A DNA stretch of 48,309 nt, from the IMG/VR virus record IMGVR_UViG_3300037462_000908, positions 1 to 48,309 of that record, one strand, 5' to 3'. The notes under the pieces were generated by a model that worked only from the letters and a program-made list of their open reading frames with translations, was not told the DNA's origin and ran no database searches. Below, piece by piece: positions 8,741 through 46,264 of this stretch. A program made the position numbers and the translations under genes. This stretch comes from a virus. Lineage: Duplodnaviria; Caudoviricetes. Numbering within the stretch: the first letter of the stretch is position 1; every line of letters begins with the position of its first letter.

Positions 8741-8849
8741 ATATACAAAGTAAGTAAATAAATAATTTATTTACAAATGTTTCATTATATTTTTTTTAAT
8801 TAAATAAATTATTTATATATTTGTATAGACAATTTTAATATTCATTCAC
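8741..8849. promoter_or_regulatory. Divergent pair of repeated phage promoter elements
   Basis: Minus-strand copy (8741-8800) and partial plus-strand copy (TATATTTG at 8816-8823) of the element at 12166 and 23341. Confidence 0.65.
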
Positions 8850-11312: not shown

Positions 11313-11380
11313 AGCATAAAGAGTTTTAGTGAAGACCAAAACTAAAAAAAAGATTCAAAATAACAAATAATATTAATAAG

Positions 11381-11680
11381 TGAAACGCAAAAGGAACGGA
11401 TAAGTATTTATAAATCAATGAAATATAATAGATTTTGAAACGCATTTGTGTACGATTACGGAACGCAAAAGGAACGGATAAGAGATTTTTGAAGAGTTTT
11501 TATAAAAAAATGAAACGCAAAAGGAACGGATAAAAAACTAAATGTCAATAATTTACATTGAATTTTGAAACGCATTTGAGTACGATTAACATAATTTTTA
11601 TTCATTTGAAACGCAAAAGGAACGGATAAATATTTGTTTTTCAGTTTTTTATGATAATTTTTGAAACGGTTTTGAGTACG
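11381..11680 (+). repeat. Iteron-like direct repeat array, candidate replication origin
   Basis: (T)GAAACGCAAAAGGAACGGATAA at 11381, ~11460 (variant), 11511, 11607; TGAAACGCATTTG(T/A)GTACG-like at 11436, 11566, 11662; followed by an AT-rich tract. Confidence 0.75.
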
Positions 11681-11821
11681 CCCTATCTCTAGTATATATA
11701 GTATATATATTTAGTTATAATAGTTAATAGTAGTTTTCTTTTTTGGTTCTTTTTTCTTTTGAATTTTTCTTGAAAAAAATGCGGAATATTTTTTTAATGT
11801 TTTGCGGAAAATTCATGAGAC

Positions 11822-12088: not shown

Positions 12089-12165
12089 AGTTTTAGAATT
12101 TTTATGATAGGCACAAAGGAAATAAATAAATTACATATTTACAACTGCCAAATAAATATTTTTAG

Positions 12166-12246
12166 TTTTATTAAAAAAAATATAATAAAATATTTGCAAG
12201 TAAATAAATTATTTATTTACTTTGTATAACAATTTTAATTATTCAC
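12166..12246 (+). promoter_or_regulatory. Repeated ~80-bp promoter element, copy 1
   Basis: Near-identical to 23341-23421; TTTG (12193) and TTACTTTG (12217) 20 nt apart, resembling Bacteroidota -33/-7 boxes. Confidence 0.7.
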
Positions 12247-12264
12247 AATAAATATATTACTCTT

Positions 12265-15417: not shown

Positions 15418-15480
15418 CTTTTATTTTAATAAAAAATTTATATATTTGCAAATATAATTTATTTTAATTAAATTATTTTA

Positions 15481-16110
15481 ATGAAAGGTATTGATATAAA
15501 TCCCAAAGGGTATCATAAAAACCCAAGACAAATTAGCGAAAAACAGTTCGCTAATTTAAAAGAATGGCTTGAAGAGCTTGGAGACTTGTCAGGTATCATT
15601 CATGACCTAAATTCAAACGAACTCATTGGAGGTAACCAAAGGAGTAGGGTAATATTTGCGTCAGGAGATTACGAGGTAAATCTTACTAAAAAGTATGCAA
15701 ATCCCACAAAGACAGGGACCGTAGCAGTAGGGCATCTTACTTGGAACGGAGAGATGTATAATTACAGACAGGTTCGATGGACACCTAAGCAATGTGAAAA
15801 AGCCAATATCATAGCCAACAAAGCAGGCGGTACTTGGGACACTGATATTCTGGCAAATGAATTTGAAATAGAGGATTTATCAGACTGGGGCTTTGAGGAT
15901 TGGGAATTATCATTTGCAAATACTGAAGAGGAAGAAGAGGAGCAAGAAGAAAAGAAAGAAAATGGATATGTGATTAAGAGTGAAATCATATTTGATGATG
16001 AGGGACAGAAAGCAAATTTCGATAAGTTTTTAATCTATCTGAAGAAAAAATATAAACAAGAAGAGACGATTGCAGCAAGATTAGACAAGCATATTCAAGA
16101 ATTCATATAA
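15481..16110 (+). CDS. ParB/Srx-like domain protein
   Basis: YHKNPRQIS...LIGGNQR...ANIIANKAGGTWDTDIL; acidic linker. Confidence 0.8.
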   Translation: MKGIDINPKGYHKNPRQISEKQFANLKEWLEELGDLSGIIHDLNSNELIGGNQRSRVIFASGDYEVNLTKKYANPTKTGTVAVGHLTWNGEMYNYRQVRWTPKQCEKANIIANKAGGTWDTDILANEFEIEDLSDWGFEDWELSFANTEEEEEEQEEKKENGYVIKSEIIFDDEGQKANFDKFLIYLKKKYKQEETIAARLDKHIQEFI

Positions 16111-16143
16111 AGAATACCAATTACTAACAATACATATATTACT

Positions 16144-17238
16144 ATGGCAAAGAAGGATGACTATATCCAATACTTGGATATCGACGTTCTTGAAGCCTCG
16201 AAAAAGAGAATCAAGCATTTACTCAATAGCTTTGATCATCTTATCATAGCTTTTTCAGGAGGGAAGGACTCCCTTGTACTCTTGAACTTAGTAGAAGAGG
16301 TATATCAGGAACTAAAAATAGAAGAACGCCCGAAGGTTTTTTTTCGGGATGAAGAACTAATCCCAGATGATGTGATTGAATTTGTTGATTCAATAAGGCT
16401 CTCAGGACGTTTCGACTTTCGCTATTATTGTATACAGCTTGAAAGCGAAAAGTATGTTCTTGGCAAGAAAGAAACCTATATACAGTGGGATTCTAAGAGG
16501 GAACACATCAGACCTATTCCACAACACGCTATCACTCATGACCAGGTACTCAGCCAATACACAACTGATGAATTTGTCGTAAAGGACCTAAAAGGCAGAG
16601 TAGCTATTTTGACTGGCATCAGAGCTGATGAAAGTATCATGAGGTTCCAAGGCATCTTAGTCAAAAAAGATGAAAGCTATGTATCTGAAAGCCCATGCCC
16701 TCGTGTGAAGCTTTGTAAACCTATCTATGATTGGACTGAAAAAGATGTATTTAGATACTTTTATGATAAAGATATTAAATACTGTAAGATTTATGATTTT
16801 CAGATGTTTGCTGGGCAGAGGCTAAGAGTTTCTACTCCATTGCATGCAGAGAGTGCCAAAGAAATCAATAAACTCAAAACCGTTTATCCTGTATTTTATA
16901 GCCAAATCACATCTTTATTTCCAGAAGTACGCCTGCAGGAAAGATATTTCAAAGAGCTTGATCGTGATGGAATCATCTACCAATATCCACACACTTGGGA
17001 GGGTATTATGCAATACATCAAAGATAATATTGAAGAGCCTGCCCATAAGAAGAAAGCCATCGAAGCTGTAGAAAAGTGTAAAAGAGCAAGAAAAAATCAA
17101 ACCACTACGGAACGACCTTACGGAGGGTATCCCGTATTTTACGTGTTTAAACAAATCGTAAATGGGGCATACAAAAGATCCATTCTACCCAAAGCACACC
17201 ACAGAATTAGCAAAAAAGAAAAAGAATATGAGCAATAA
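16144..17238 (+). CDS. ibrA: PAPS-reductase family PP-loop protein (IbrA/YbdN-like)
   Basis: AFSGGKDS, FFRDEE, GIRADES..R, KPIYDWTEKDVF; paired with an IbrB-like gene. Confidence 0.8.
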   Translation: MAKKDDYIQYLDIDVLEASKKRIKHLLNSFDHLIIAFSGGKDSLVLLNLVEEVYQELKIEERPKVFFRDEELIPDDVIEFVDSIRLSGRFDFRYYCIQLESEKYVLGKKETYIQWDSKREHIRPIPQHAITHDQVLSQYTTDEFVVKDLKGRVAILTGIRADESIMRFQGILVKKDESYVSESPCPRVKLCKPIYDWTEKDVFRYFYDKDIKYCKIYDFQMFAGQRLRVSTPLHAESAKEINKLKTVYPVFYSQITSLFPEVRLQERYFKELDRDGIIYQYPHTWEGIMQYIKDNIEEPAHKKKAIEAVEKCKRARKNQTTTERPYGGYPVFYVFKQIVNGAYKRSILPKAHHRISKKEKEYEQ

Positions 17239-17791
17239 GAGATTTTTTTCAGAAGAGCATGTTCAGGCGTTTCTGAATTTTGGGATACTACCCGCTATCC
17301 ATAATGATATGGGAGTTTTGCTTGACAATTTCCTAAGAGATGGGGAGGTATGTATGGATTTGGGTTCCTGTACTGGCTTACTTGGTGTAAGAGCCATCAG
17401 GGCAGGAGCTAAGAAAGTAATAGGCATAGAAGCCTCTAAAAGATACATAGAGAAGGCTATCAATCATCCAAATATAGAATATCATAATATGCATGTAGCC
17501 AAAGAAACTCTTGATGATATTTCAGATTTGATAGTTAGAAACAAAGTAACTTCCATACTTGCCCGTAGAGTTATTCCTGAGATAGCAGCTCATTGCTCTG
17601 TTGGGACAATCTATGATTTATCTAGAATGTTTAATAACCTGGGCATTCAAAAAATATTCATTGAGGGTAGGGTATTGGTAGAAAATGCAAAAAGTCATTT
17701 CAGTTCCATAGAAAAAGAGATAGAGGCTTTTTCTACTTATTATAAAGTAACATCCCATAGCAAAAACGCCTATTTACTAACTAAAATATGA
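17228..17791 (+). CDS. Class I SAM-dependent methyltransferase-like protein
   Basis: MDLGSCTGLLG...GAKKVIGIE; likely start ATG 17228. Confidence 0.8.
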   Translation: MSNKRFFSEEHVQAFLNFGILPAIHNDMGVLLDNFLRDGEVCMDLGSCTGLLGVRAIRAGAKKVIGIEASKRYIEKAINHPNIEYHNMHVAKETLDDISDLIVRNKVTSILARRVIPEIAAHCSVGTIYDLSRMFNNLGIQKIFIEGRVLVENAKSHFSSIEKEIEAFSTYYKVTSHSKNAYLLTKI

Positions 17792-18237
17792 AAGAGTATA
17801 ATGGATTCTCAGGAGCTTACAGAGCAAAGGTAGGGAGGCTACTCAATAAAGCTATATTCGAAGGTAAGTTAAAAGCTCCTGAGAAATGCTGTGTTTGTGG
17901 TCAGGAAGAGGGAGGCATGCATTACCACCTTGAAGATTACTCAAAACCCTTTGAGGAACTAAGAGAAATCTGTATAGGATGCCACATGAAATTACACATG
18001 AGATTCGAATACCCTAATATGTGGAAACAGCATCTACATGAGGTTAGGCTTGGTAGAAAAAGCCCTCCTTATAAAAATGTAGGACACTTCTTTAATAAAC
18101 TTAGATTACTAAACATCACTAAAGATTTTGATTTCGTGCCAATGGTAGAAAACCCTACCACTTGGTATGAGAAACTAGCAATTACTAACGATAAATATAT
18201 TACTGATGAAAAAGCCACCAATTTACAACCCGATTGA
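17788..18237 (+). CDS. HNH-like zinc-finger protein
   Basis: CCVCG...HYHLEDYSKP...CIGCHMKLH. Confidence 0.65.
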   Translation: MKEYNGFSGAYRAKVGRLLNKAIFEGKLKAPEKCCVCGQEEGGMHYHLEDYSKPFEELREICIGCHMKLHMRFEYPNMWKQHLHEVRLGRKSPPYKNVGHFFNKLRLLNITKDFDFVPMVENPTTWYEKLAITNDKYITDEKATNLQPD

Positions 18238-18709
18238 ACATTGGACTTGGATTGATGCCTTAGAGCTCAAGGCAAATGATTATAATCCAAACTTTGTTCT
18301 ACCAGCAGAATTAGAACTGCTAGAATTATCCATCATCCAAACGGGTTGGGTACAACCCTTATTAGTTACAAAAGACCTTGTTATTATTGATGGCTTCAAT
18401 AGAGCCACAATATCGAGGGTGAACGCTTGGAAAGTCCCCGCTTGTGTACTTGACATTTCAGAATCAGAGAGAATGTTATTGACTATTAGAATTAATAGGG
18501 CAAAAGGTTCTCATGTTGCATTCAAAATGAGTGAGGTAATTAAGAAACTTATCAATGAATTTGGTTTAGAAAAATCTTATGTAGCTAGAAGCATAGGAGC
18601 TTCTCTGAAGGAAATTGATTTGCTTCTTGAAGATGATGTATTTACCCGACTAAACATCAAAGACCACAAATACAGCAAAGCGTGGGAAGTGAAAAAGCCT
18701 TCTAAATAA
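18206..18709 (+). CDS. ibrB: ParB-like protein (IbrB/YbdM-like)
   Basis: ANDYNPN...LL..SI...GWVQP...IIDGFNR...TIRINRAKGSH. Confidence 0.8.
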   Translation: MKKPPIYNPIEHWTWIDALELKANDYNPNFVLPAELELLELSIIQTGWVQPLLVTKDLVIIDGFNRATISRVNAWKVPACVLDISESERMLLTIRINRAKGSHVAFKMSEVIKKLINEFGLEKSYVARSIGASLKEIDLLLEDDVFTRLNIKDHKYSKAWEVKKPSK

Positions 18710-18753
18710 TTGTATTAAACATTTTATATTATAATAAATAAATTATATATTTA

Positions 18754-18784
18754 TTTGTTTTTTACAATATAACTATTATTTTTG
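18754..18784 (+). promoter_or_regulatory. Bacteroidota-type sigma-A promoter upstream of the RNA array
   Basis: TTTG (18754-18757), 19 nt, TATTTTTG (18777-18784) matching TAnnTTTG. Confidence 0.55.
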
Positions 18785-18850
18785 TAATGTAATTAAGCAA
18801 TTGTGGGTTTTACTGAATGCGAGGGTAGGTTTCGCCCTACCCTTTACAAA

Positions 18851-18921
18851 GCGAGAGTAGTTCAATGGTAGAACACCAGTCTTCCACACTGGATATGTGA
18901 GTTCGATTCTCACCTTTTGCT
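18851..18921 (+). tRNA. tRNA-Gly(TCC)
   Basis: Acceptor GCGAGAG/CTTTTGC, D GTTC/GAAC, anticodon arm CCAGT-CTTCCAC-ACTGG, T arm GTGAG-TTCGATT-CTCAC; no encoded CCA. Confidence 0.92.
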
Positions 18922-18943
18922 CAACCTATATACACACAGCGAG

Positions 18944-19163
18944 TCCCGAACTGTTTTTGGGGCAATTTACTTTAGGAAGTCTCTTTAGGCGGAGATAAGG
19001 TCCGTTTGGTTGGTTTGGTGCTTTGCAACTAATATCTGGTAGAAAGTCTTGCAAGCGAATACTAGTAACTTGGTAATAATAAGCACATACACTAAAGTAA
19101 ATCCAAAAATGGGGAGGGTGGGGGTTTCCTAAAAAGAAGCCCTCAGCATCAAAGCCGAAAGGC
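18944..19163 (+). ncRNA. Unidentified ~220-nt multibranched structured RNA
   Basis: CTGTTTTTGG/CCAAAAATGG, ATTTACTTTAG/CTAAAGTAAAT, GTGCTT/AAGCAC, GGGGGTTTC/GAAGCCCTC helices and a GCC-GAAA-GGC hairpin. Confidence 0.6.
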
Positions 19164-19181
19164 AAAACGTTCTTTAAAAAC

Positions 19182-19251
19182 ATAGTTGGTTCGGTAGGGC
19201 AAAAGACCCCTATAATAGTAGAAGCCAATTGGTAAGCCAGTCACCAACTAT
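19182..19251 (+). ncRNA. 70-nt structured RNA element
   Basis: 9-bp closing stem ATAGTTGGT/ACCAACTAT with internal hairpins; ends just before tRNA-CAT. Confidence 0.45.
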
Positions 19252-19252
19252 C

Positions 19253-19324
19253 GGTCTCCTAGCTTAAAGGTAAAGCAGTTCACTCATAATGAAAAGAGTG
19301 TAGGTTCGATTCCTGCGGAGTCCA
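19253..19324 (+). tRNA. tRNA with CAT anticodon (Ile2 or elongator Met)
   Basis: GGTCTCC/GGAGTCC acceptor (one mismatch), GCTT/AAGC, TTCA-CTCATAA-TGAA, GTAGG-TTCGATT-CCTGC. Confidence 0.85.
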
Positions 19325-19352
19325 CTTGGTTTAATTGGGGAATTAAAACCAA

Positions 19353-19399
19353 ATAACGCCGTGAGGCAGTCAAAACTTAGCCCAAACGTGGGCGGTTAT
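19353..19399 (+). ncRNA. Compact four-way-junction RNA element
   Basis: ATAAC/GTTAT closes GCC-GTGA-GGC, AGT-CAAA-ACT and GCCCA-AACG-TGGGC. Confidence 0.45.
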
Positions 19400-19428
19400 G
19401 GTTCAATTAAATTAGTGTTTTTTTAGTT

Positions 19429-19530
19429 GTAGGATGTAACTCAGTGGCTAGAGGGTGCTTATAATGCAAATTAGCAAGTGCATTTATTATGAATTTCATA
19501 ATAGCGTGGGTTCGAGTCCCACCATCCTAC
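19429..19530 (+). ncRNA. tRNA-like RNA A (expanded anticodon/variable region)
   Basis: GTAGGATG/CATCCTAC acceptor, D loop CTCAGTGGCTAGAG, T arm GTGGG-TTCGAGT-CCCAC; ~50 nt between D and T arms with no canonical anticodon loop. Confidence 0.75.
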
Positions 19531-19578
19531 CAAGCGGTTTCCTTGTGAAATGCTTATGTTGCGGTTGTGATTGACCCA

Positions 19579-19651
19579 GTACGATATAGCTCAGCAGGCA
19601 GAGCGAAACTGTATTCGGTTGTGTGCGTAGGTTCGAGTCCTACTATCGTAC
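19579..19651 (+). ncRNA. tRNA-like RNA B (shrunken anticodon loop)
   Basis: GTACGATA/TATCGTAC, GCTC/GAGC, AACTG-TATT-CGGTT, GTAGG-TTCGAGT-CCTAC. Confidence 0.75.
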
Positions 19652-19657
19652 TCAAAT

Positions 19658-19839
19658 AGGGGCTTAGCTCAAATGGATAGAGCGTTTTTCGTTTGAAGGT
19701 AGATTATAATAGCTAGCTAAAAAATCTATTCGGAGACAGGCAAAAGAATGGAAAAGACCATAGTGAATTTGCAAATAACTATACGATTCTTTTCTTCTGC
19801 AAAGAAAAAAGGTTACTGGTTCGAGTCCAGTAGCCCCTA
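19658..19839 (+). ncRNA. tRNA-like RNA C (~110-nt structured insert in place of the anticodon loop)
   Basis: AGGGGCT/AGCCCCT, GCTC-AAATGGATA-GAGC, TTTTTC/GAAAAA enclosing the insert, ACTGG-TTCGAGT-CCAGT. Confidence 0.8.
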
Positions 19840-19849
19840 CTAACTTAGA

Positions 19850-19981
19850 TACAATGTAGCGGAATTGGTAAACGCAAGTAATCGGATGCTTCTATGGGTA
19901 TGGCTCTATATACGTTGTCTTGCAGTAAAGAATTAACTCCCGTAGTCTTTGCTGTTTTGGGTTCGAGTCCCAACATTTTTT
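19850..19981 (+). ncRNA. tRNA-like RNA D (Leu-type D arm, structured insert, imperfect acceptor)
   Basis: GCG-GAATTGGTAAA-CGC, AGTAA/TTGCT and CTATGGG/CCCGTAG stems, TTGGG-TTCGAGT-CCCAA. Confidence 0.7.
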
Positions 19982-19989
19982 CTAAGTTT

Positions 19990-20061
19990 TTTCGGGGGTG
20001 AGGAATGGAGGATGTGTTCCGCCTGTGAAGTTCCGTAGGTCATGTGTACCCTACCCCGAAA
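19990..20061 (+). ncRNA. Three-way-junction RNA element
   Basis: TTTCGGGG/CCCCGAAA closing GGAAT/GTTCC and GCCTGTG/CGTAGGT hairpins. Confidence 0.5.
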
Positions 20062-20079
20062 TTTTTAACTTTTTGTATT

Positions 20080-21654: not shown

Positions 21655-21699
21655 AAACCCGATTGCTACGCCTAAATAGAAACAATCGGGTTGTTTTTT
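21655..21699. terminator. Terminator-like hairpin after terminase large subunit
   Basis: AACCCGATTG...CAATCGGGTT. Confidence 0.55.
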
Positions 21700-23311
21700 A
21701 TCCAAATGGCAGGAATGCTGCCTTCTTCACAAAGTAACCTTTACGAGCCCAATTCCAATACACAAAGCTATCAGCAATGTTGGGGCTTTTGCCCCCAAGG
21801 CGTTGTTTGATAATTTCCTTCTTCTCTACACTAATAGTCTTATCTGTTACTGTATATTTCGGTTCTACTAATTCAGTGATCAATCTTTCGATTAATCTTT
21901 TATCTTCTAATTTGATACTTATTTTTTTGTTTCGGAGGTCTTCTCTTGCCTCCCAATACATTTGGGAACGTAAAGAAGCAAATTGATAAAGAGGTTTTTC
22001 GTCTTTATCCTTTGGGATAGCCAATTCATTTTGCCCTCCTGAAAGTGCTTGAGCAAATATCTTTTTATTATGAAGGGTATTAATTGTACTGGTACCAATG
22101 CCCACGCTATCAACGCCAATGTATTCTCCTTTGATGCCCTTTGTTTTGATGTTTGGAATATCAAAAATATGATAACCTTCATTCATCAGCTCATCGAGGG
22201 GTAAAATGAGATTATAAGCCAAATGAGAGGCATCAGGGCAATTAAATTCTTTGATAAAATTTACCACATTACTTTCTCCATAAGCTACACAAGCCTTGTC
22301 TCCGTTAATAGAGTTTGCCACGTCCACACCTACAGCATTTTTACTATTATCTTTTTCGATATCCAAGTTTATACACTGTTTTATCCATTCTGCTTTAATT
22401 AAGCTATCAATCGATTGAGCAGGGGATATACCACGAACACGAGACTTATAGAAGGCTGATTCTTCTCCATACTCTTCTTTACGGTCCTCAATGCTCCCGA
22501 TAGTAGCAGCTCCTGGTATGAGTTCTTTTTGAAGTACGATATTTGGGTGATCATAAGCACTAATTATAAAATGCTTCGTGTTGGGCTTCTTACAAAAGTT
22601 ATGAAGGGTATCCGTTTGAGCATCTGGGTTACCTACTGCTAAAATCAAATTATGTTCCCCAGTGGATGTATTGATGTAAGCCTCCATAGATGCCAAGTCA
22701 ATACCTGGTGTTTCTTCTGTAATGATAAGCATGTGTTCCCTGTGGAAGCCTTGACGAGATGTATTTGATTTGCTTCCTGATGATGCCCTAGAAGCTACTC
22801 CCACAGCCTGCCAAGCGTTTTGATTTGCCTCATCATCTTCTAAGTTATCAAAGCCTCTTGCATCTACTAAAAGCCTTAATGAATCGAATAATTCGGCATA
22901 GGGACGTATTTTTTTGAACTTATGAAAGGATGATTTCATTTCACTCCAAAGTTGAGTTTTGAGCTGTCCAGCAACTGGTGCAGAAGTAACCACAAAACTA
23001 TTTTCAAAACAATCTAAGAACCAAAATACTACTCTTGCAAGCCAGTGGGTTTTACCTGTTCCTGTAGCAGACTCAATACCTACTTTTTTATTTCCATCTG
23101 CCAATGCCTGCCAAGCATATTTGAAAGGACTTATTGATCCATCCCAAACATGATTCTTATAGTCACCACCCCAAAGCTCCCAATCTACATTTTTTCTTGA
23201 CTCTCCAAATCTTTCTTCAAGCCAATCAACAGGGTTTTTCTGATAATGAAGCATTTGTAAACGTCTTAGCTTCTCTTCTTTCAATAGCCTTAATTCCTTT
23301 TTAATATCCAT
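21698..23311 (-). CDS. Terminase large subunit
   Basis: Walker A SATGTGKT, QGFH..HMLIITEE, VGNP, RVRG, GVDVA..GD, DSVGIG, SPNIADS. Confidence 0.92.
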   Translation of the reverse strand: MDIKKELRLLKEEKLRRLQMLHYQKNPVDWLEERFGESRKNVDWELWGGDYKNHVWDGSISPFKYAWQALADGNKKVGIESATGTGKTHWLARVVFWFLDCFENSFVVTSAPVAGQLKTQLWSEMKSSFHKFKKIRPYAELFDSLRLLVDARGFDNLEDDEANQNAWQAVGVASRASSGSKSNTSRQGFHREHMLIITEETPGIDLASMEAYINTSTGEHNLILAVGNPDAQTDTLHNFCKKPNTKHFIISAYDHPNIVLQKELIPGAATIGSIEDRKEEYGEESAFYKSRVRGISPAQSIDSLIKAEWIKQCINLDIEKDNSKNAVGVDVANSINGDKACVAYGESNVVNFIKEFNCPDASHLAYNLILPLDELMNEGYHIFDIPNIKTKGIKGEYIGVDSVGIGTSTINTLHNKKIFAQALSGGQNELAIPKDKDEKPLYQFASLRSQMYWEAREDLRNKKISIKLEDKRLIERLITELVEPKYTVTDKTISVEKKEIIKQRLGGKSPNIADSFVYWNWARKGYFVKKAAFLPFG

Positions 23312-23340
23312 AAATCAAAGGTTTAATTACAAATTTAGTA

Positions 23341-23421
23341 TTTTATTAAAAAAAATATAATAAAATATTTGTAAATATATAAATTATTTATTTACTTTGT
23401 ATAGACAATTTAATTATTCAC
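23341..23421 (+). promoter_or_regulatory. Repeated ~80-bp promoter element, copy 2
   Basis: Near-identical to 12166-12246; heads a run of small coupled ORFs. Confidence 0.7.
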
Positions 23422-23437
23422 TTTAATATTTATCATT

Positions 23438-30085: not shown

Positions 30086-31414
30086 TTATTGTTGGTTAGT
30101 TGGTGGCTGTGTAGGGGTTTCAACAGCAGGTTTATCATATCCCATTTCCTGGGCAAACTGCTCTTGAGAAATAATACCTTCAGCTTTAAGTTTCATAAGA
30201 TTATCTATCTTGACTCCTTGGGCTTCATGTTCAAGTTTTTGGTCACTAAGCACAGGTTTATCAAACTTCACTTCTAAATTCACATCATAGCCTTGCATCA
30301 AAAGATGCATCTCAAAAAGGTCTTCTAGGAAGTATGCTATAATATTTTGAAAAGAAGTAATTTTTGATGTAAATATTGTAAGCAATATTTTCCCAAATGT
30401 TTCTGCTCTACTTTGTTGCCTACCCAATAAGTTAGGGTCTTGCTTCAAGCCTGCCATTGTATTGATGTCATTGAGCATCATGATGTCTTTGGCATTATCT
30501 CCATCCATCATTTTACTGCCTGTTAGCTTGAATTCGTGACTATCTTTATAGCCCATCACGTATCCACTATTCATGTTTTTCTCAACTTGTGGACGAGCTT
30601 TTTCAAGATAAGCTAAACATCTTTCATAATAAGCGTCAGGGGTTTCATTCTCTTCTTGGGGAGGAGCTGTGAGTAATACCTCCAAGAACCCCATCAAGCC
30701 AAACTTTTCAGCCACTTTGGCAAACCCTTTCAGGAGGTTTCTTTCAATTCCTATACTTTCTAAGGCTGCTAAGAATGGAGGAATACCATAAGGATTATTA
30801 TTATCCGAACTGATAGCAGAATAAGTATAAGTAGTAGTATTTAGCTGTTTATACCCATTGGGAGCTTTTGAATTTTTTTGGTGAGGGACATAATCCCCAT
30901 CAATTGAAAAAAAACGTATTGTATAGGGATTTACAAGCGGAATCTTTACAATTTCAGTTAGTTTTGCGTTTGGGACTTTCTCTATGGATAAGCATCCATT
31001 AATTGCCATCTGACGAAGCATATTATTGATAGCAACGTCAAGATTTAGTTTTTTATGTAAAGCCTTTAATATCTTCCGAATTTTCTTGTCGGCTCTTTTC
31101 CCAGTATCTTCTAATATGACATTATAGGGTGTATTAGCCAAATTGATAATGTTATCTACTGCCAAAGAAACATTCCCATTAAATATTGCATAGCGTTGCA
31201 ATAGTGGCAACCATTCAACCCCAAATGTTGGCTCAAGAGGTGTTCTTGAGAATCTAATATTATACAAATCAGAATCTTCATTGACTGTCTCTCTACCCAA
31301 AGAAGCCCTATTACCCATAGGCATTTCAGGAGGATTCTTTTTAACATATATTTCTTTTACCTCTGTTTTTTTGCTTGAAAACAAAGATATAAAGGAAGAC
31401 CAAAACCAAGCCAT
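30086..31414 (-). CDS. Portal protein
   Basis: ~442 aa; INGCLSIEKV, NPYTIRF, PYGIPPFLAAL, GIISQEQFAQEMGY. Confidence 0.8.
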   Translation of the reverse strand: MAWFWSSFISLFSSKKTEVKEIYVKKNPPEMPMGNRASLGRETVNEDSDLYNIRFSRTPLEPTFGVEWLPLLQRYAIFNGNVSLAVDNIINLANTPYNVILEDTGKRADKKIRKILKALHKKLNLDVAINNMLRQMAINGCLSIEKVPNAKLTEIVKIPLVNPYTIRFFSIDGDYVPHQKNSKAPNGYKQLNTTTYTYSAISSDNNNPYGIPPFLAALESIGIERNLLKGFAKVAEKFGLMGFLEVLLTAPPQEENETPDAYYERCLAYLEKARPQVEKNMNSGYVMGYKDSHEFKLTGSKMMDGDNAKDIMMLNDINTMAGLKQDPNLLGRQQSRAETFGKILLTIFTSKITSFQNIIAYFLEDLFEMHLLMQGYDVNLEVKFDKPVLSDQKLEHEAQGVKIDNLMKLKAEGIISQEQFAQEMGYDKPAVETPTQPPTNQQ

Positions 31415-31542
31415 AACATATTTTTTTATCAAAATTAACTTTTTTCGTTAAAAATATTTTATTTTATTTAAAAAATTTTAGTGAAATTATTTTTTTTTGT
31501 TACTTTTGCTATATCAATATCTGAGGCTTTATTTCCTTTATT

Positions 31543-39411: not shown

Positions 39412-41616
39412 TTATCCATCTCTTCTTCTTTGGTTGTTTTCATTTTTCTTATTGACAATTTTTGTGATTTCTTCATCTCCAAATACAAATGTGAATTTTT
39501 GTTCTTGTTGTTGTTGCTCTGGAGTATTGACAGTAACATTTGTATTGCCTCCTGCCATTTGTTGGGCTTTTTGTTTAGCCATTTGCTGAGCCATTTCATT
39601 GAGATTAAACATACCTCCCATTTGAGTAGTTTGCCCTTGTGGTGTTATGCCTGCAAACATTGCTCCTGCCATACCACTTCCTGCATTGGGACCAGTGCTA
39701 ATTCCTGCCGCCTCAAAAATCATATCCATACCAGGTATCTCTAAGATTTTAGAAAGAAACCATCCCTTAAATGATTCCCAAGCTCCCAAAATTCCATTTT
39801 TAATATTTTCTACCATCTCCATACCCCAATTCACAAACCTTGAGGGCAGAGCAAAAAACCATTCAGTAAATTGATTGAATTTGATAGCTAAGTAATTTGT
39901 AAATGATCCCCACAAATCGGAAACCCATTGTGTAATAGCTCCCCAATTCGTAAACGCCATGTAAACGCCATAAATCAAACCTATGATTAATAAGAAAGGC
40001 CATGTAGCAGCTATTACTGCTGATGCCAAAGCCCACATTTTAATAATCAAAGCCCCCACAGCAATCACCATAACCCCTGTTAAAAATCCTGCCAAAACTT
40101 GACCAGCTGCTCTCCATTCATTTATTGAAGAGGTTGTTTTATTCAGCCAAGGCACCCATTCAAAAATAACATTCAATAGTGGTCTGATAGCTGATTTAAT
40201 GACATTGAATACACTTGAAACAACATTGCCTATGGCTTTAAATATTGTGGCAAAGGCTGAGAACATTCCTGAAAACATTTCTTTTATCCTGATAATCCAA
40301 GTTGACAAATTGACAACTAAATCCAATATACCTAATTCAGCAAGCCTATTCTCCATCCCTCCCAAATTAAAGCTATTACCATCCCAAGAGTTCCATACTG
40401 TAATGAGACTTTGCACCACGCCTCCCAATCTTTGCATAAATAGCAATAACCCACTGCCTTTTGAAGCCGTTCCATTTGCATACTCATTAAAACTACTCAA
40501 TGCATTCTTAATGAGCATAAACACACCAAAAATAGCAACACCAATAGCTATGTAGGGTAAAAAAGGTATCATAGCCTGCCAAGCACTCAGAGCTAACATC
40601 TTCAATCCTCCTGTAAGACCATTGACAGCAAACGCATTGGCAATAGCTGTTTTACCCATACTCATGAAGGTATTGGATAGAGATAAAGACATAAACCTTG
40701 CCCCAGCCATTGTAATCGTGAGAGCTCCAAGAACTGTTAATAACAAACCTAAGCCCATAGTAGCCACAAACAACACTTTGCCAAGAGGTGTTTTAGCAAA
40801 CTCAGCAGCCGCTTGAGCAAAGTTAATGAAGAATCTAACACCTTGTTTCAAGTAAGGTAATAGGATATTTCCAAACTCCTGCTTTACAAAAGTTAAGTTA
40901 TCTTTAAAGGTAGATACTAAACCATTATAAGTTCCTGACTGAGCCTCCATCATATTATAGAATTTGCCACCCTCAGAGGTCATGTTTCTAAATGCCTCTT
41001 CTACTTGTGCAAAAGGTATTTTCAAGCCTCTTGTGCTTGTTAAATCTTTCACAGTTCTTCCTGTTACTCTCGATAACTCCTCCCAAATGGGGATACCTCT
41101 ATTTGCAAACTGACGAATATCTATAAGTCCTGCATAACCAGCAGTCCTAACAGTACCATACAAATATGATAATTGTCCCAAAGGGATATTCAAACCAGAA
41201 GCAACATCACCAAGCGTTCTCATGGTTGGGATAAGCTCCTGTTGAGCAAACCCATAAGCCAAGAGTTGTTTTGTGGCTCTCGTAATCTCTGGGGTTTCGT
41301 AGGGAGTAGCTGCTGCAAATGCTTGAATATCTTTAATCATAGCCCTTGCCTTCCCAGCATCCCCAAGCATCGTTCTGAATGCCATTTGTTGTTGCTCCAA
41401 TTCTGCTGCTGCTGTGATGGATGAGCCTGCACTAGATAGAAGGGTAGTACCTGCTCTCAGTAATGCAAATCCACTATTCATAGAGTTCATCATTATATCA
41501 AACTGCTTTTCTGCGTGCTTAGAAGAGCCTGTAAGATTAGAAAGTGAACGTTCTATTTGAGAAGCTTCAGCAGAAAACTGATTCTTTAACTCGAAAATAA
41601 GACCAAAACCCAACAT
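39412..41616 (-). CDS. Tape measure protein
   Basis: AFRTMLG...FAAATPY...LLAYGF...LGDVASG tape-measure domain; periodic W/F; TM segments. Confidence 0.92.
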   Translation of the reverse strand: MLGFGLIFELKNQFSAEASQIERSLSNLTGSSKHAEKQFDIMMNSMNSGFALLRAGTTLLSSAGSSITAAAELEQQQMAFRTMLGDAGKARAMIKDIQAFAAATPYETPEITRATKQLLAYGFAQQELIPTMRTLGDVASGLNIPLGQLSYLYGTVRTAGYAGLIDIRQFANRGIPIWEELSRVTGRTVKDLTSTRGLKIPFAQVEEAFRNMTSEGGKFYNMMEAQSGTYNGLVSTFKDNLTFVKQEFGNILLPYLKQGVRFFINFAQAAAEFAKTPLGKVLFVATMGLGLLLTVLGALTITMAGARFMSLSLSNTFMSMGKTAIANAFAVNGLTGGLKMLALSAWQAMIPFLPYIAIGVAIFGVFMLIKNALSSFNEYANGTASKGSGLLLFMQRLGGVVQSLITVWNSWDGNSFNLGGMENRLAELGILDLVVNLSTWIIRIKEMFSGMFSAFATIFKAIGNVVSSVFNVIKSAIRPLLNVIFEWVPWLNKTTSSINEWRAAGQVLAGFLTGVMVIAVGALIIKMWALASAVIAATWPFLLIIGLIYGVYMAFTNWGAITQWVSDLWGSFTNYLAIKFNQFTEWFFALPSRFVNWGMEMVENIKNGILGAWESFKGWFLSKILEIPGMDMIFEAAGISTGPNAGSGMAGAMFAGITPQGQTTQMGGMFNLNEMAQQMAKQKAQQMAGGNTNVTVNTPEQQQQEQKFTFVFGDEEITKIVNKKNENNQRRRDG

Positions 41617-46095: not shown

Positions 46096-46264
46096 AATTT
46101 TTAACGCTATTGGAAAAATTAATCAAGAAAAGTTATCAAATTTCTATTCTTATTATTAATATTAGTATTCATACAGTAAATATAATTAAGATTTCTTTAA
46201 TAAAAAAATAAATAATTAAGATTTTTTAAAACACAATTACAAAACAACTAAAACTCAAACAATT
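46096..46264. promoter_or_regulatory. CI/Cro divergent control region
   Basis: Direct repeat ATAATTAAGATTT at ~46182 and ~46212. Confidence 0.5.

What the first reader, a model, noticed from the sequence alone, without database searches (positions are those of the whole stretch)
18820..20062. A 1.25-kb polycistronic RNA array alternating tRNA folds with other structured RNAs
Seen: after a TTTG-N19-TATTTTTG promoter, nearly all of this GC-elevated interval falls in hairpins, tRNA folds or multi-way junctions, with short spacers and no credible ORF. Known: RNase P and 3' trimming enzymes recognise tRNA elbows, and some phage ncRNAs such as GOLLD lie within tRNA clusters. Inference: one precursor is cut at the tRNA folds to release about ten small RNAs.
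Basis: partly seen in the sequence, partly recalled or inferred. Interest (0 to 1): 0.72.

Follow-up and report, generated by a model that had tools for sequence, protein, structure and literature searches.

The report
Prophage operon of tRNA look-alikes
A prophage carries a 1.25-kb stretch with no credible protein gene that holds two ordinary-looking tRNA genes, four tRNA-shaped sequences whose anticodon arm is replaced or broken, and a copy of the hairpin-plus-boxA signal of ribosomal RNA operons; it is likely read as one transcript and cut by the host's tRNA-trimming enzymes into non-decoding look-alikes, possibly decoys, a recurring but little-studied kind of phage RNA.

Summary
The array is real. 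Six tRNA frames lie in 18851-19986 and nowhere else in the window (0 in 200 shuffles). Two are near-canonical: Gly-UCC and a CAU tRNA of Ile2 type. Four keep acceptor, D and T arms but have a collapsed anticodon arm or 49, 81 or 131 nt in its place. They are consecutive, not alternating with other RNAs. New here: a hairpin-AAAA-boxA site (19154-19179) with the layout of the rRNA leader of a same-genus genome. It recurs twice in an unrelated prophage of this genome, also beside irregular tRNAs; that prophage also shares a two-hairpin motif with one compensatory pair. Two related prophages hold other cargo in this slot, so the array is a swappable module. Long-insert tRNA frames are common in phages (89 of 117 pattern matches close an acceptor stem; G-1:C73 in 17 of 89 versus 0 of 45 canonical). 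No homologue of the inserts was found, they fold no better than shuffles, and expression and processing are untested. Verdict: new variant of phage irregular-tRNA arrays; decoy role likely but unproven.

The parts
18754..18784 (+). Bacteroidota-type promoter match, TTTG-N19-TATTTTTG; overlaps a repeated AT-rich phage cassette (18735-18777)
   Evidence: 13 loose matches in the window; family D3. The consensus is recalled; the rRNA leader of G003 shows the same layout
18821..18844 (+). 5' hairpin, 9 bp; its left arm can also pair with 20049-20061 and its right arm with U3
   Evidence: -14.6 kcal/mol; duplexes -17.9 and -17.6, found post hoc, no control
18851..18921 (+). tRNA-Gly(UCC), near-canonical; U73, G3.U70 wobble, no encoded CCA
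   Evidence: (69.7 bits)
18938..19104 (+). U1: unassigned multibranch region closed by an 11-bp helix (18965-18975 / 19092-19102)
   Evidence: 18926-19252 z -2.26; truncated piece z +0.41; no Rfam match; no homologue found
19110..19179 (+). U2: hairpin followed by GNRA hairpin (boxB-like, 19154-19163), AAAA and boxA-like CGTTCTTTAAAA (19168-19179)
   Evidence: z -2.36; (rRNA leader and spacer layout of G003, G129, G036); also in C1:469181, C1:469379 and L021
19182..19251 (+). U3: three-way junction ending at the 5' end of the CAU tRNA
   Evidence: z -2.54; resemblance to the C1 array not significant (28 of 200 shuffles reach it)
19253..19324 (+). tRNA with CAU anticodon, likely Ile2 type (C4-G69; U3.U70 and G27.A43 mismatches)
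   Evidence: 62.6 bits; scores 42 against the host's Ile2-like tRNA and 33-34 against two other CAU tRNAs, tied at 42 with an irregular one
19354..19396 (+). U4: GNRA hairpin plus AAACGU-loop hairpin, uncatalogued motif
   Evidence: homologue at G000:C1:473022-473060, score 49 against null maximum 25 in 200 shuffles, one C-G to U-A change; no substitution inside it in run X6's variant (one base missing at its 5' edge), which diverges just after it
19429..19530 (+). T5: tRNA frame, 8-bp acceptor with G-1:C73, 49 nt between D and T arms including a 9-bp variable arm
   Evidence: (39.2 bits); irregular relative at C1:469626
19579..19651 (+). T6: tRNA frame of normal length, 8-bp acceptor with G-1:C73, no 7-nt anticodon loop
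   Evidence: anticodon unreadable; 44.4 bits
19657..19839 (+). T7: tRNA frame, 8-bp acceptor (U-1:A73), 131 nt between D and T arms; an alternative 4-bp hairpin with a UCU loop lies just before the T arm
   Evidence: missed by Rfam; ARAGORN with introns calls Cys + 106-nt intron
19844..19986 (+). T8: Leu/Ser-type D arm, 81-nt insert with long variable arm, acceptor 5 of 7 pairs extended by 6 more pairs; weakest frame
   Evidence: not recovered by the stricter finder
19990..20061 (+). U9: multibranch element closed by 8 bp, uncatalogued
   Evidence: z -0.92; one 151-nt contig of run X4 holds 53 nt of it with 1 difference directly behind the 3' end of another tRNA

Best explanation
The stretch is a prophage cargo module of two near-canonical tRNA genes, four tRNA-shaped sequences with a replaced or broken anticodon arm and an rRNA-type hairpin-boxA site, which is likely transcribed as one RNA, predicted to be kept running by host NusB-boxA antitermination and to be cut by host RNase P and 3' trimming enzymes at the six elbows, giving non-decoding look-alikes that most likely act as decoys for host proteins that bind or attack tRNA. 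Shown: the anatomy, the boxA layout, the recurrence of boxA and U4 in an unrelated prophage, the swappable slot. Inferred from known biology: single transcript, antitermination, processing (about 0.75). Inferred with no direct evidence: the decoy role (about 0.4 given processing), with Gly-UCC and Ile2 serving as replacement tRNAs. T5 and T6 would be cut one base upstream, like tRNA-His, and might be charged with histidine without decoding, as shown for other G-1 irregular tRNAs (PMC5389517).
For: Six of six frames keep a 5-bp T stem, a TTCGA T loop, U8, A9 and the D-loop GG, while four of six have lost a canonical anticodon arm: the pattern expected if selection acts on the elbow and acceptor. 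The few variants in other runs fall mostly in loops: two T-loop changes that keep the consensus and a change in T5's variable-arm loop that keeps its stem. Hairpin-AAAA-boxA matches the rRNA leader and spacer of a same-genus genome; the pattern occurs 3 times in the 4.9-Mb genome, each time in a prophage beside irregular tRNAs, and in 0 of 400 other genomes of the phylum, reversed control 0. A phage contig has the same site ahead of a tRNA-like frame with a large insert (L021). The host encodes RNase P RNA and NusB. The class is widespread: 89 of 117 distinct IMG/VR matches close a 6-7 bp acceptor; G-1:C73 in 17 of 89 against 0 of 45 canonical frames from the same loci (sequences not independent). 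Codon use gives the two tRNAs little translational reason (GGA 0.34 phage, 0.37 host; ATA 0.33, 0.27).
Against: No homologue of U1, U3 or of the T5, T7, T8 inserts was found, so there is no covariation for them; the inserts fold no better than shuffles. The two related prophages with the same flanking genes lack the array, and none of 8 terminase-relative loci shows one (three have short upstream flanks). A boxA-like site lies near only 1 of 122 other long-insert loci, so it is not a feature of the class. boxA sits about 380 nt into the array, not at its start, and no terminator closes the array, so it may serve the downstream genes instead. T7 keeps an alternative anticodon-like hairpin. The best RNase Z match in the host is far below the family cut-off. 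One X6 change breaks the closing pair of the hairpin before U4. The prophage's genes are inverted relative to relatives, so it may be defective. Nothing here tests the decoy role.
Confidence: 0.45

Rival explanations
1. Natural tRNA scaffolds and processing handles: the frames exist to have the inserts and the spacer RNAs (U1-U3, U4, U9) cut out and stabilised, and these cargo RNAs carry the function.
For: U4 is shared with an unrelated prophage, directly beside tRNA frames in both, with a compensatory pair; U9 recurs directly behind another tRNA; U2, U3 and 18926-19252 fold better than shuffles; U3 ends where RNase P would cut.
Against: Inserts are not more stable than shuffles, share nothing with each other or with 122 other loci; T6 has no cargo at all; U4 model found no further true copy in 148 genomes or 89 other loci.
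Confidence: 0.22
2. Decaying tRNA genes: a captured tRNA cluster in a possibly defective prophage whose anticodon arms have gained insertions and drifted without function.
For: Mismatches even in the two 'canonical' tRNAs and in T8's acceptor; no conservation of the slot; scrambled gene orientation of the prophage.
Against: Damage is confined to one arm in four of four frames while T arms are perfect; extra -1:73 pairs; near-identical pieces in several other studies; the same design recurs in many phages.
Confidence: 0.13
3. Intron-bearing tRNAs: T5, T7 and T8 are spliced to working tRNAs.
For: ARAGORN with introns calls Leu(UAG)+10 nt, Cys(GCA)+106 nt, Thr(AGU)+60 nt; T7 keeps 4-bp UCU and 2-bp GCA anticodon-like hairpins near the T arm.
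Against: No group I or II intron match and inserts far too short for either; by inspection T7's bulges lie on the wrong sides for a bulge-helix-bulge site; no RNA ligase or splicing nuclease family among the 48 (Pfam) and 55 (PHROGs) window proteins scanned; T6 has no insert.
Confidence: 0.1
4. The region is chiefly an antitermination leader for the downstream packaging genes (a nut-like site), the tRNA frames being passengers.
For: Transcription can run on into the small ORFs and the small terminase gene on the same strand; in the C1 prophage two such sites lie behind the first gene of the operon that diverges from an HTH gene.
Against: Related prophages express the same gene order without array or site; all three sites in the genome sit beside irregular tRNAs; order is boxB-boxA as in rRNA operons (PMC10250234).
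Confidence: 0.1

Closest known systems
Polycistrons of irregular tRNAs (Mukai et al., PMC5389517; passages and section 16 read, supplements not read)
   Same: Tandem irregular tRNA frames, some with G-1; two G-1 species there were histidylated in vitro yet did not decode
   Different: Those are attributed to acidobacteria, from soil metatranscriptomes, near toxin-antitoxin genes, with 7/5 or 8/4 stems and extra loops; here a Bacteroidota prophage, anticodon domains replaced by up to 131 nt, boxA inside, no toxin-antitoxin family detected next to it
Phage tRNA clusters with stable RNAs of unknown function: T4 RNA C and RNA D (PMC9697503, passages read; their place in the tRNA cluster is recalled)
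   Same: Phage small RNAs of unknown role expressed with phage tRNAs
   Different: No sequence similarity found (one search hit only ordinary tRNAs); here four of six frames are irregular and the phage is temperate
GOLLD and ROOL RNAs near phage tRNA islands (PMC12286853, passages read)
   Same: Structured phage RNA next to tRNA genes
   Different: No Rfam match; the longest non-tRNA stretch here is 327 nt, GOLLD often exceeds 800
rRNA-operon boxB-boxA antitermination site (PMC10250234, PMC13753749; passages read)
   Same: Hairpin then boxA; sequence close to both quoted consensus forms and to the rRNA boxA of relatives
   Different: In a prophage RNA array, about 380 nt from the likely start; binding untested; boxC not identified
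YrlA / bacterial Y RNAs (Rfam RF02553)
   Same: tRNA-like elbow without decoding; host has two TROVE genes
   Different: Only a 20-bit partial match spanning two neighbouring frames; ends lie in the acceptor stem as in tRNA, not in a Ro-binding stem; no TROVE gene in the window

Membership tests
Canonical tRNA (RF00005) | Cloverleaf with 7-nt anticodon loop on a 5-bp stem | tested here: met
   Gly-UCC and CAU only (5 and 4 stem pairs)
Canonical tRNA (RF00005), T5-T8 | Canonical anticodon arm between D and T arms | tested here: not met
   inserts of 49, 131, 81 nt; T6 has no 7-nt loop on a stem
RNase P substrate (tRNA elbow) | Acceptor plus T stem, TTCRA T loop, D-loop GG | tested here: met
   six of six frames in sequence; T8 acceptor only 5 of 7
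RNase P substrate (tRNA elbow) | Cleavage at the 5' end | not testable with these tools
   needs in vitro cleavage or end mapping
rrn boxB-boxA | Hairpin followed by boxA matching the lineage's rRNA boxA | tested here: met
   on relatives G003, G129, G036; the host's own rRNA operon is not in the assembly
rrn boxB-boxA | NusB-S10 binding and antitermination | not testable with these tools
   host has NusB
GOLLD / ROOL | Match to the family covariance model and size | tested here: not met
   no match at E up to 5
YrlA Y RNA | Permuted tRNA domain on a Ro-binding stem, next to a TROVE gene | tested here: not met
   20 bits against gathering 69; no TROVE in the window
tmRNA or tag-less tmRNA | Ala-type acceptor without D stem, model match | tested here: not met
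   ARAGORN and Rfam find none in the window; all frames have D stems
Intron-containing tRNA | Group I/II intron or bulge-helix-bulge site restoring a normal anticodon arm | tested here: inconclusive
   no intron family match; ARAGORN proposes splices; no RNA data
allo-tRNA / irregular tRNA polycistrons (PMC5389517) | 8/4 or 9/3 acceptor/T configuration | tested here: not met
   T stems are 5 bp; extra pair is -1:73

The most novel reading that the evidence does not exclude
Temperate Bacteroidota phages borrow the host's ribosomal-RNA antitermination site to run a modular small-RNA factory: host RNase P cuts one transcript at tRNA elbows to release anticodon-less, G-1:C73-capped tRNA scaffolds and uncatalogued motifs (U4, U9) that are traded between unrelated phages and neutralise tRNA-targeting defence.
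Probability: 0.2. Interest if true: 0.78.

Novelty: new variant of a known kind. Interest (0 to 1): 0.5.

Why it matters
Why phages carry tRNA-like RNAs that cannot decode is an open question. This locus puts four different look-alikes, two ordinary tRNAs and a boxA site under one promoter in a removable slot of a prophage, so processing, antitermination, charging and counter-defence can each be tested with one 1.3-kb cassette. Standard annotation reports three of the six frames, and a single narrow pattern is estimated to hit about 1500 IMG/VR stretches, three quarters of the sampled ones true frames, so the class is undercounted. The G-1:C73 enrichment gives a concrete biochemical prediction.

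Tried and rejected
Rfam at gathering and at E up to 5: only tRNA. Array as DNA query: 150 relatives and 50,697 phage records gave short tRNA-sized matches only. No RNA holder listed among public runs, which says nothing on expression. boxB-boxA pattern: 0 of 400 phylum genomes, 1 hit in genome contigs without an array, judged chance (L029), 0 in metagenome contigs, 4 one-mismatch hits in 5 relatives, three in a coding gene and none with an array. U4 patterns: 0 viral, 2 metagenome hits judged chance; U4 model: 2 weak hits in 148 genomes, one inside an ORF, the other not confirmed by my motif check and not inspected further. U9 patterns: 0 viral, 0 of 200 genomes, 1 viral hit in coding DNA. Four viral loci with relatives of the upstream ParB-like gene hold no tRNA. 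U3 likeness to the C1 array was not significant. Likeness of U1 to RNase P RNA or SAM riboswitches, of U4 to twister and of U9 to a fluoride riboswitch, all recalled, were dropped for lack of an Rfam match. A 40-nt match to U1 in run X8 (7 differences) was treated as chance. A homologue search with the large terminase could not be made, so the synteny test rests on a single-protein scan. Nine literature searches returned no paper on a boxA-bearing phage array of anticodon-replaced tRNAs; the library lacks most subscription papers, and the supplement of PMC5389517 (its Figure S6), not read, may show similar arrays.

Full report
Setting. The window is a prophage: integrase, repressor, terminase, portal, capsid, sheath, tube and baseplate families, on contig C20 of a 4.9-Mb genome with a host tRNA-Ala just beyond the integrase. 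Promoter type and relatives point to Bacteroidota (inference; the nearest named homologue of the upstream gene is labelled Raineya sp. by its source). The array lies between a PAPS-reductase / methyltransferase / ParB-like gene block and two small ORFs followed by the small terminase gene.

What is there. ARAGORN finds three tRNAs and Rfam four. A frame finder that demands acceptor, D arm with GG and T arm but allows any insert finds six in the whole window, all in the array, with 22, 23, 49, 22, 131 and 81 nt between D and T arms, and none in 200 shuffles; a stricter version recovered five of the six, missing T8. All six have a perfect 5-bp T stem, a TTCGA loop, U8 and A9; none encodes CCA at 74-76. 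Gly-UCC and the CAU tRNA have normal anticodon arms. T6 has normal length but no 7-nt loop. T5 has a disordered anticodon region and a 9-bp variable arm. T7 carries a branched 131-nt domain and keeps an alternative 4-bp hairpin with a UCU loop before the T arm. T8 has a Leu/Ser-type D arm (type recalled), a weak acceptor extended by six pairs and a long variable arm. T5 and T6 have G-1:C73, T7 U-1:A73. Between the frames lie U1-U3 (327 nt, z -2.26), U4 and U9. G+C is 0.421 against 0.336. Folding support is uneven: U2 and U3 reach z -2.4 and -2.5, the inserts -0.74, -0.51 and -0.03, U4 -1.43, U9 -0.92.

A boxA site. At 19154-19179 a GNRA hairpin is followed by AAAA and CGTTCTTTAAAA. The rRNA leader of same-genus genome G003 reads hairpin, AAAA, AGTTCATTGA, and its spacer hairpin, AAAA, AGTTCTTTGT; G129 and G036 have AAAAAGTTCTTTGACA in the spacer. 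The order boxB then boxA is that of rRNA operons (PMC10250234, passages), and boxA is also known upstream of CRISPR operons and suhB (PMC13753749, passages). The pattern occurs three times in this genome: here and twice at C1:469181 and 469379, in a second prophage-like region that shares none of the window's structural genes by tblastn, followed by two irregular tRNA frames. It was found in 0 of 400 other genomes of the phylum, in one IMG/VR contig ahead of another large-insert frame, once in genome contigs without an array and not in metagenome contigs. The host encodes NusB, RNase P RNA and two TROVE proteins; its best RNase Z match is below the cut-off.

Shared motifs. U4 has one homologue, in the C1 prophage between an armless tRNA frame and a tRNA-Gly(UCC): score 49 against a shuffle maximum of 25, with one C-G to U-A change. 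Of 24 element-by-region comparisons, four passed: U4, and T5 (twice) and T6 largely through their T arms. A model from the two U4 copies found no further convincing copy. U9 recurs in one short contig of run X4 directly behind a different tRNA end. Runs X2-X8 and X10 hold near-identical pieces of the array; the listed variants are two T-loop changes, a loop change in T5's variable arm, two changes in the hairpin before U4 (one breaking its closing pair), one spacer change and single-base indels (contigs of depth about 2, so errors are possible).

Synteny. Two prophage fragments of a sister genus keep the ParB-like gene (64% identical) and the small terminase (41-43%) in the same order, with no tRNA frame or boxA between them. 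Eight viral loci with large-terminase relatives (47-55%) show no array; one has a single tRNA-like gene on the other strand, and three have 4.1 kb or less upstream. The array is therefore exchangeable cargo.

The class. A pattern of D arm, 50-80 nt and T arm returned 122 IMG/VR loci and an estimate of about 1500 stretches. Of 117 distinct matches 89 close a 6-7 bp acceptor; most of the other 28 that I could see are tandem ordinary tRNAs (output partly cut). 30 of 89 carry a CAGCAA-type insert motif absent here, 18 of 89 encode CCA, and 1 of 122 loci has a boxA-like site. Of 79 loci with long flanks, 10 hold two or more long-insert frames. G-1:C73 occurs in 17 of 89 against 0 of 45 canonical frames from the same loci, while any Watson-Crick -1:73 pair is no more frequent (41 of 89 against 22 of 45); related sequences were not collapsed. 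No insert of the window matches any of them. Earlier notes of this scan describe similar RNAs in other phages (unchecked AI notes, used only as a sign that the class recurs).

Mechanism. Established biology (recalled) says RNase P reads the acceptor-T helix and elbow, not the anticodon arm, and cuts at -1 when G-1 pairs with C73. One promoter, one strand and six elbows thus predict one precursor yielding two decoding tRNAs and four non-decoding look-alikes, with boxA protecting an untranslated transcript from Rho. Phage tRNAs can replace host tRNAs cleaved by defence nucleases (PMC7824862, passages), and codon use offers little other reason for Gly-UCC and Ile2 here. Frames that keep the protein-binding half but lack a cleavable anticodon loop fit a decoy or sponge for tRNA-binding proteins; G-1 irregular tRNAs that are charged but do not decode have been shown in vitro (PMC5389517 section 16). 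This last step is inference only. Rivals: scaffold for cargo RNAs (0.22), decay (0.13), splicing (0.10), late-gene antitermination leader (0.10).

Comparison and verdict. It works like phage tRNA clusters with extra stable RNAs (T4 RNA C and D, PMC9697503, passages) and like the irregular tRNA polycistrons of PMC5389517, also reviewed in PMC7609411 (passages); it is not GOLLD or ROOL (PMC12286853, passages), YrlA, tmRNA or allo-tRNA by the tests listed. The combination of four different anticodon-replaced frames, an rRNA-type boxA and motifs shared between unrelated prophages was not found in nine literature searches. New variant of a known kind; interest 0.5, held down by the recurrence of the class and by the lack of homologues, expression data and any functional test.

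Noticed in passing
window 21698-23311, 30086-31432, 39412-41616, 1-2569: Large terminase, portal, tape measure and baseplate genes lie on the minus strand among plus-strand head and tail genes; in relatives L163/L164 terminase, portal, protease and capsid are colinear.
   Followed up: partly
window 8742-8843, 12150-12251, 15419-15460, 18735-18777, 23322-23426, 31430-31487, 46180-46231: A family of AT-rich, promoter-like cassettes up to about 100 nt and 84% alike, in both orientations, precedes gene blocks; recombination between them could explain the inverted blocks.
   Followed up: partly
window 11371-11684: Three to four repeats with two fixed blocks (GAAACGCAAAAGGAACGGATAA and GAAACG-GAGTACG), spacing 52-130 nt, in a non-coding stretch; iteron- or operator-like.
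   Followed up: no
G000:C1:467700-500000 (L176, L175): A second prophage-like region with two boxB-boxA sites, two irregular tRNA frames, an armless tRNA frame, U4 and tRNA-Gly(UCC); it has a P-loop ATPase gene and no similarity to the window's head or tail genes.
   Followed up: partly
G000:C1:303320-304030: Four tRNA frames with about 54-73 nt inserts, interleaved with repeats of GGTCAA...CTTACTTC; the first would be a normal tRNA-Asp if the insert between positions 29 and 30 were removed.
   Followed up: partly
G000:C10:122833-124573: Host tRNA array with permuted, YrlA-like elements, 1.8 kb upstream of a TROVE gene.
   Followed up: partly
G000:C7:84903-85597: Eight tRNA-Leu genes in tandem covering five anticodons, alternating long and short variable arms.
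   Followed up: no
G000:C26:87195-87754 and C22:92683-92856: Seven-tRNA cluster with shortened anticodon regions in four members; two near-identical tRNA-Trp genes behind an attenuator-like hairpin.
   Followed up: no
L021 (reverse strand 415-565): Phage contig with the same boxB-boxA followed by several hairpins and a tRNA/tmRNA-like frame with a large multibranch insert.
   Followed up: partly
L037-L158: About a third of long-insert phage tRNA frames carry a hairpin-ACAGCAA module placed 5' of a retained anticodon loop, and C73 frames nearly always have G-1 (17 of 20).
   Followed up: partly
window 15481-18709: ParB-like, PAPS-reductase-like, methyltransferase, nuclease-like and second ParB-like genes form a block typical of phage DNA-modification modules directly upstream of the array.
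   Followed up: no
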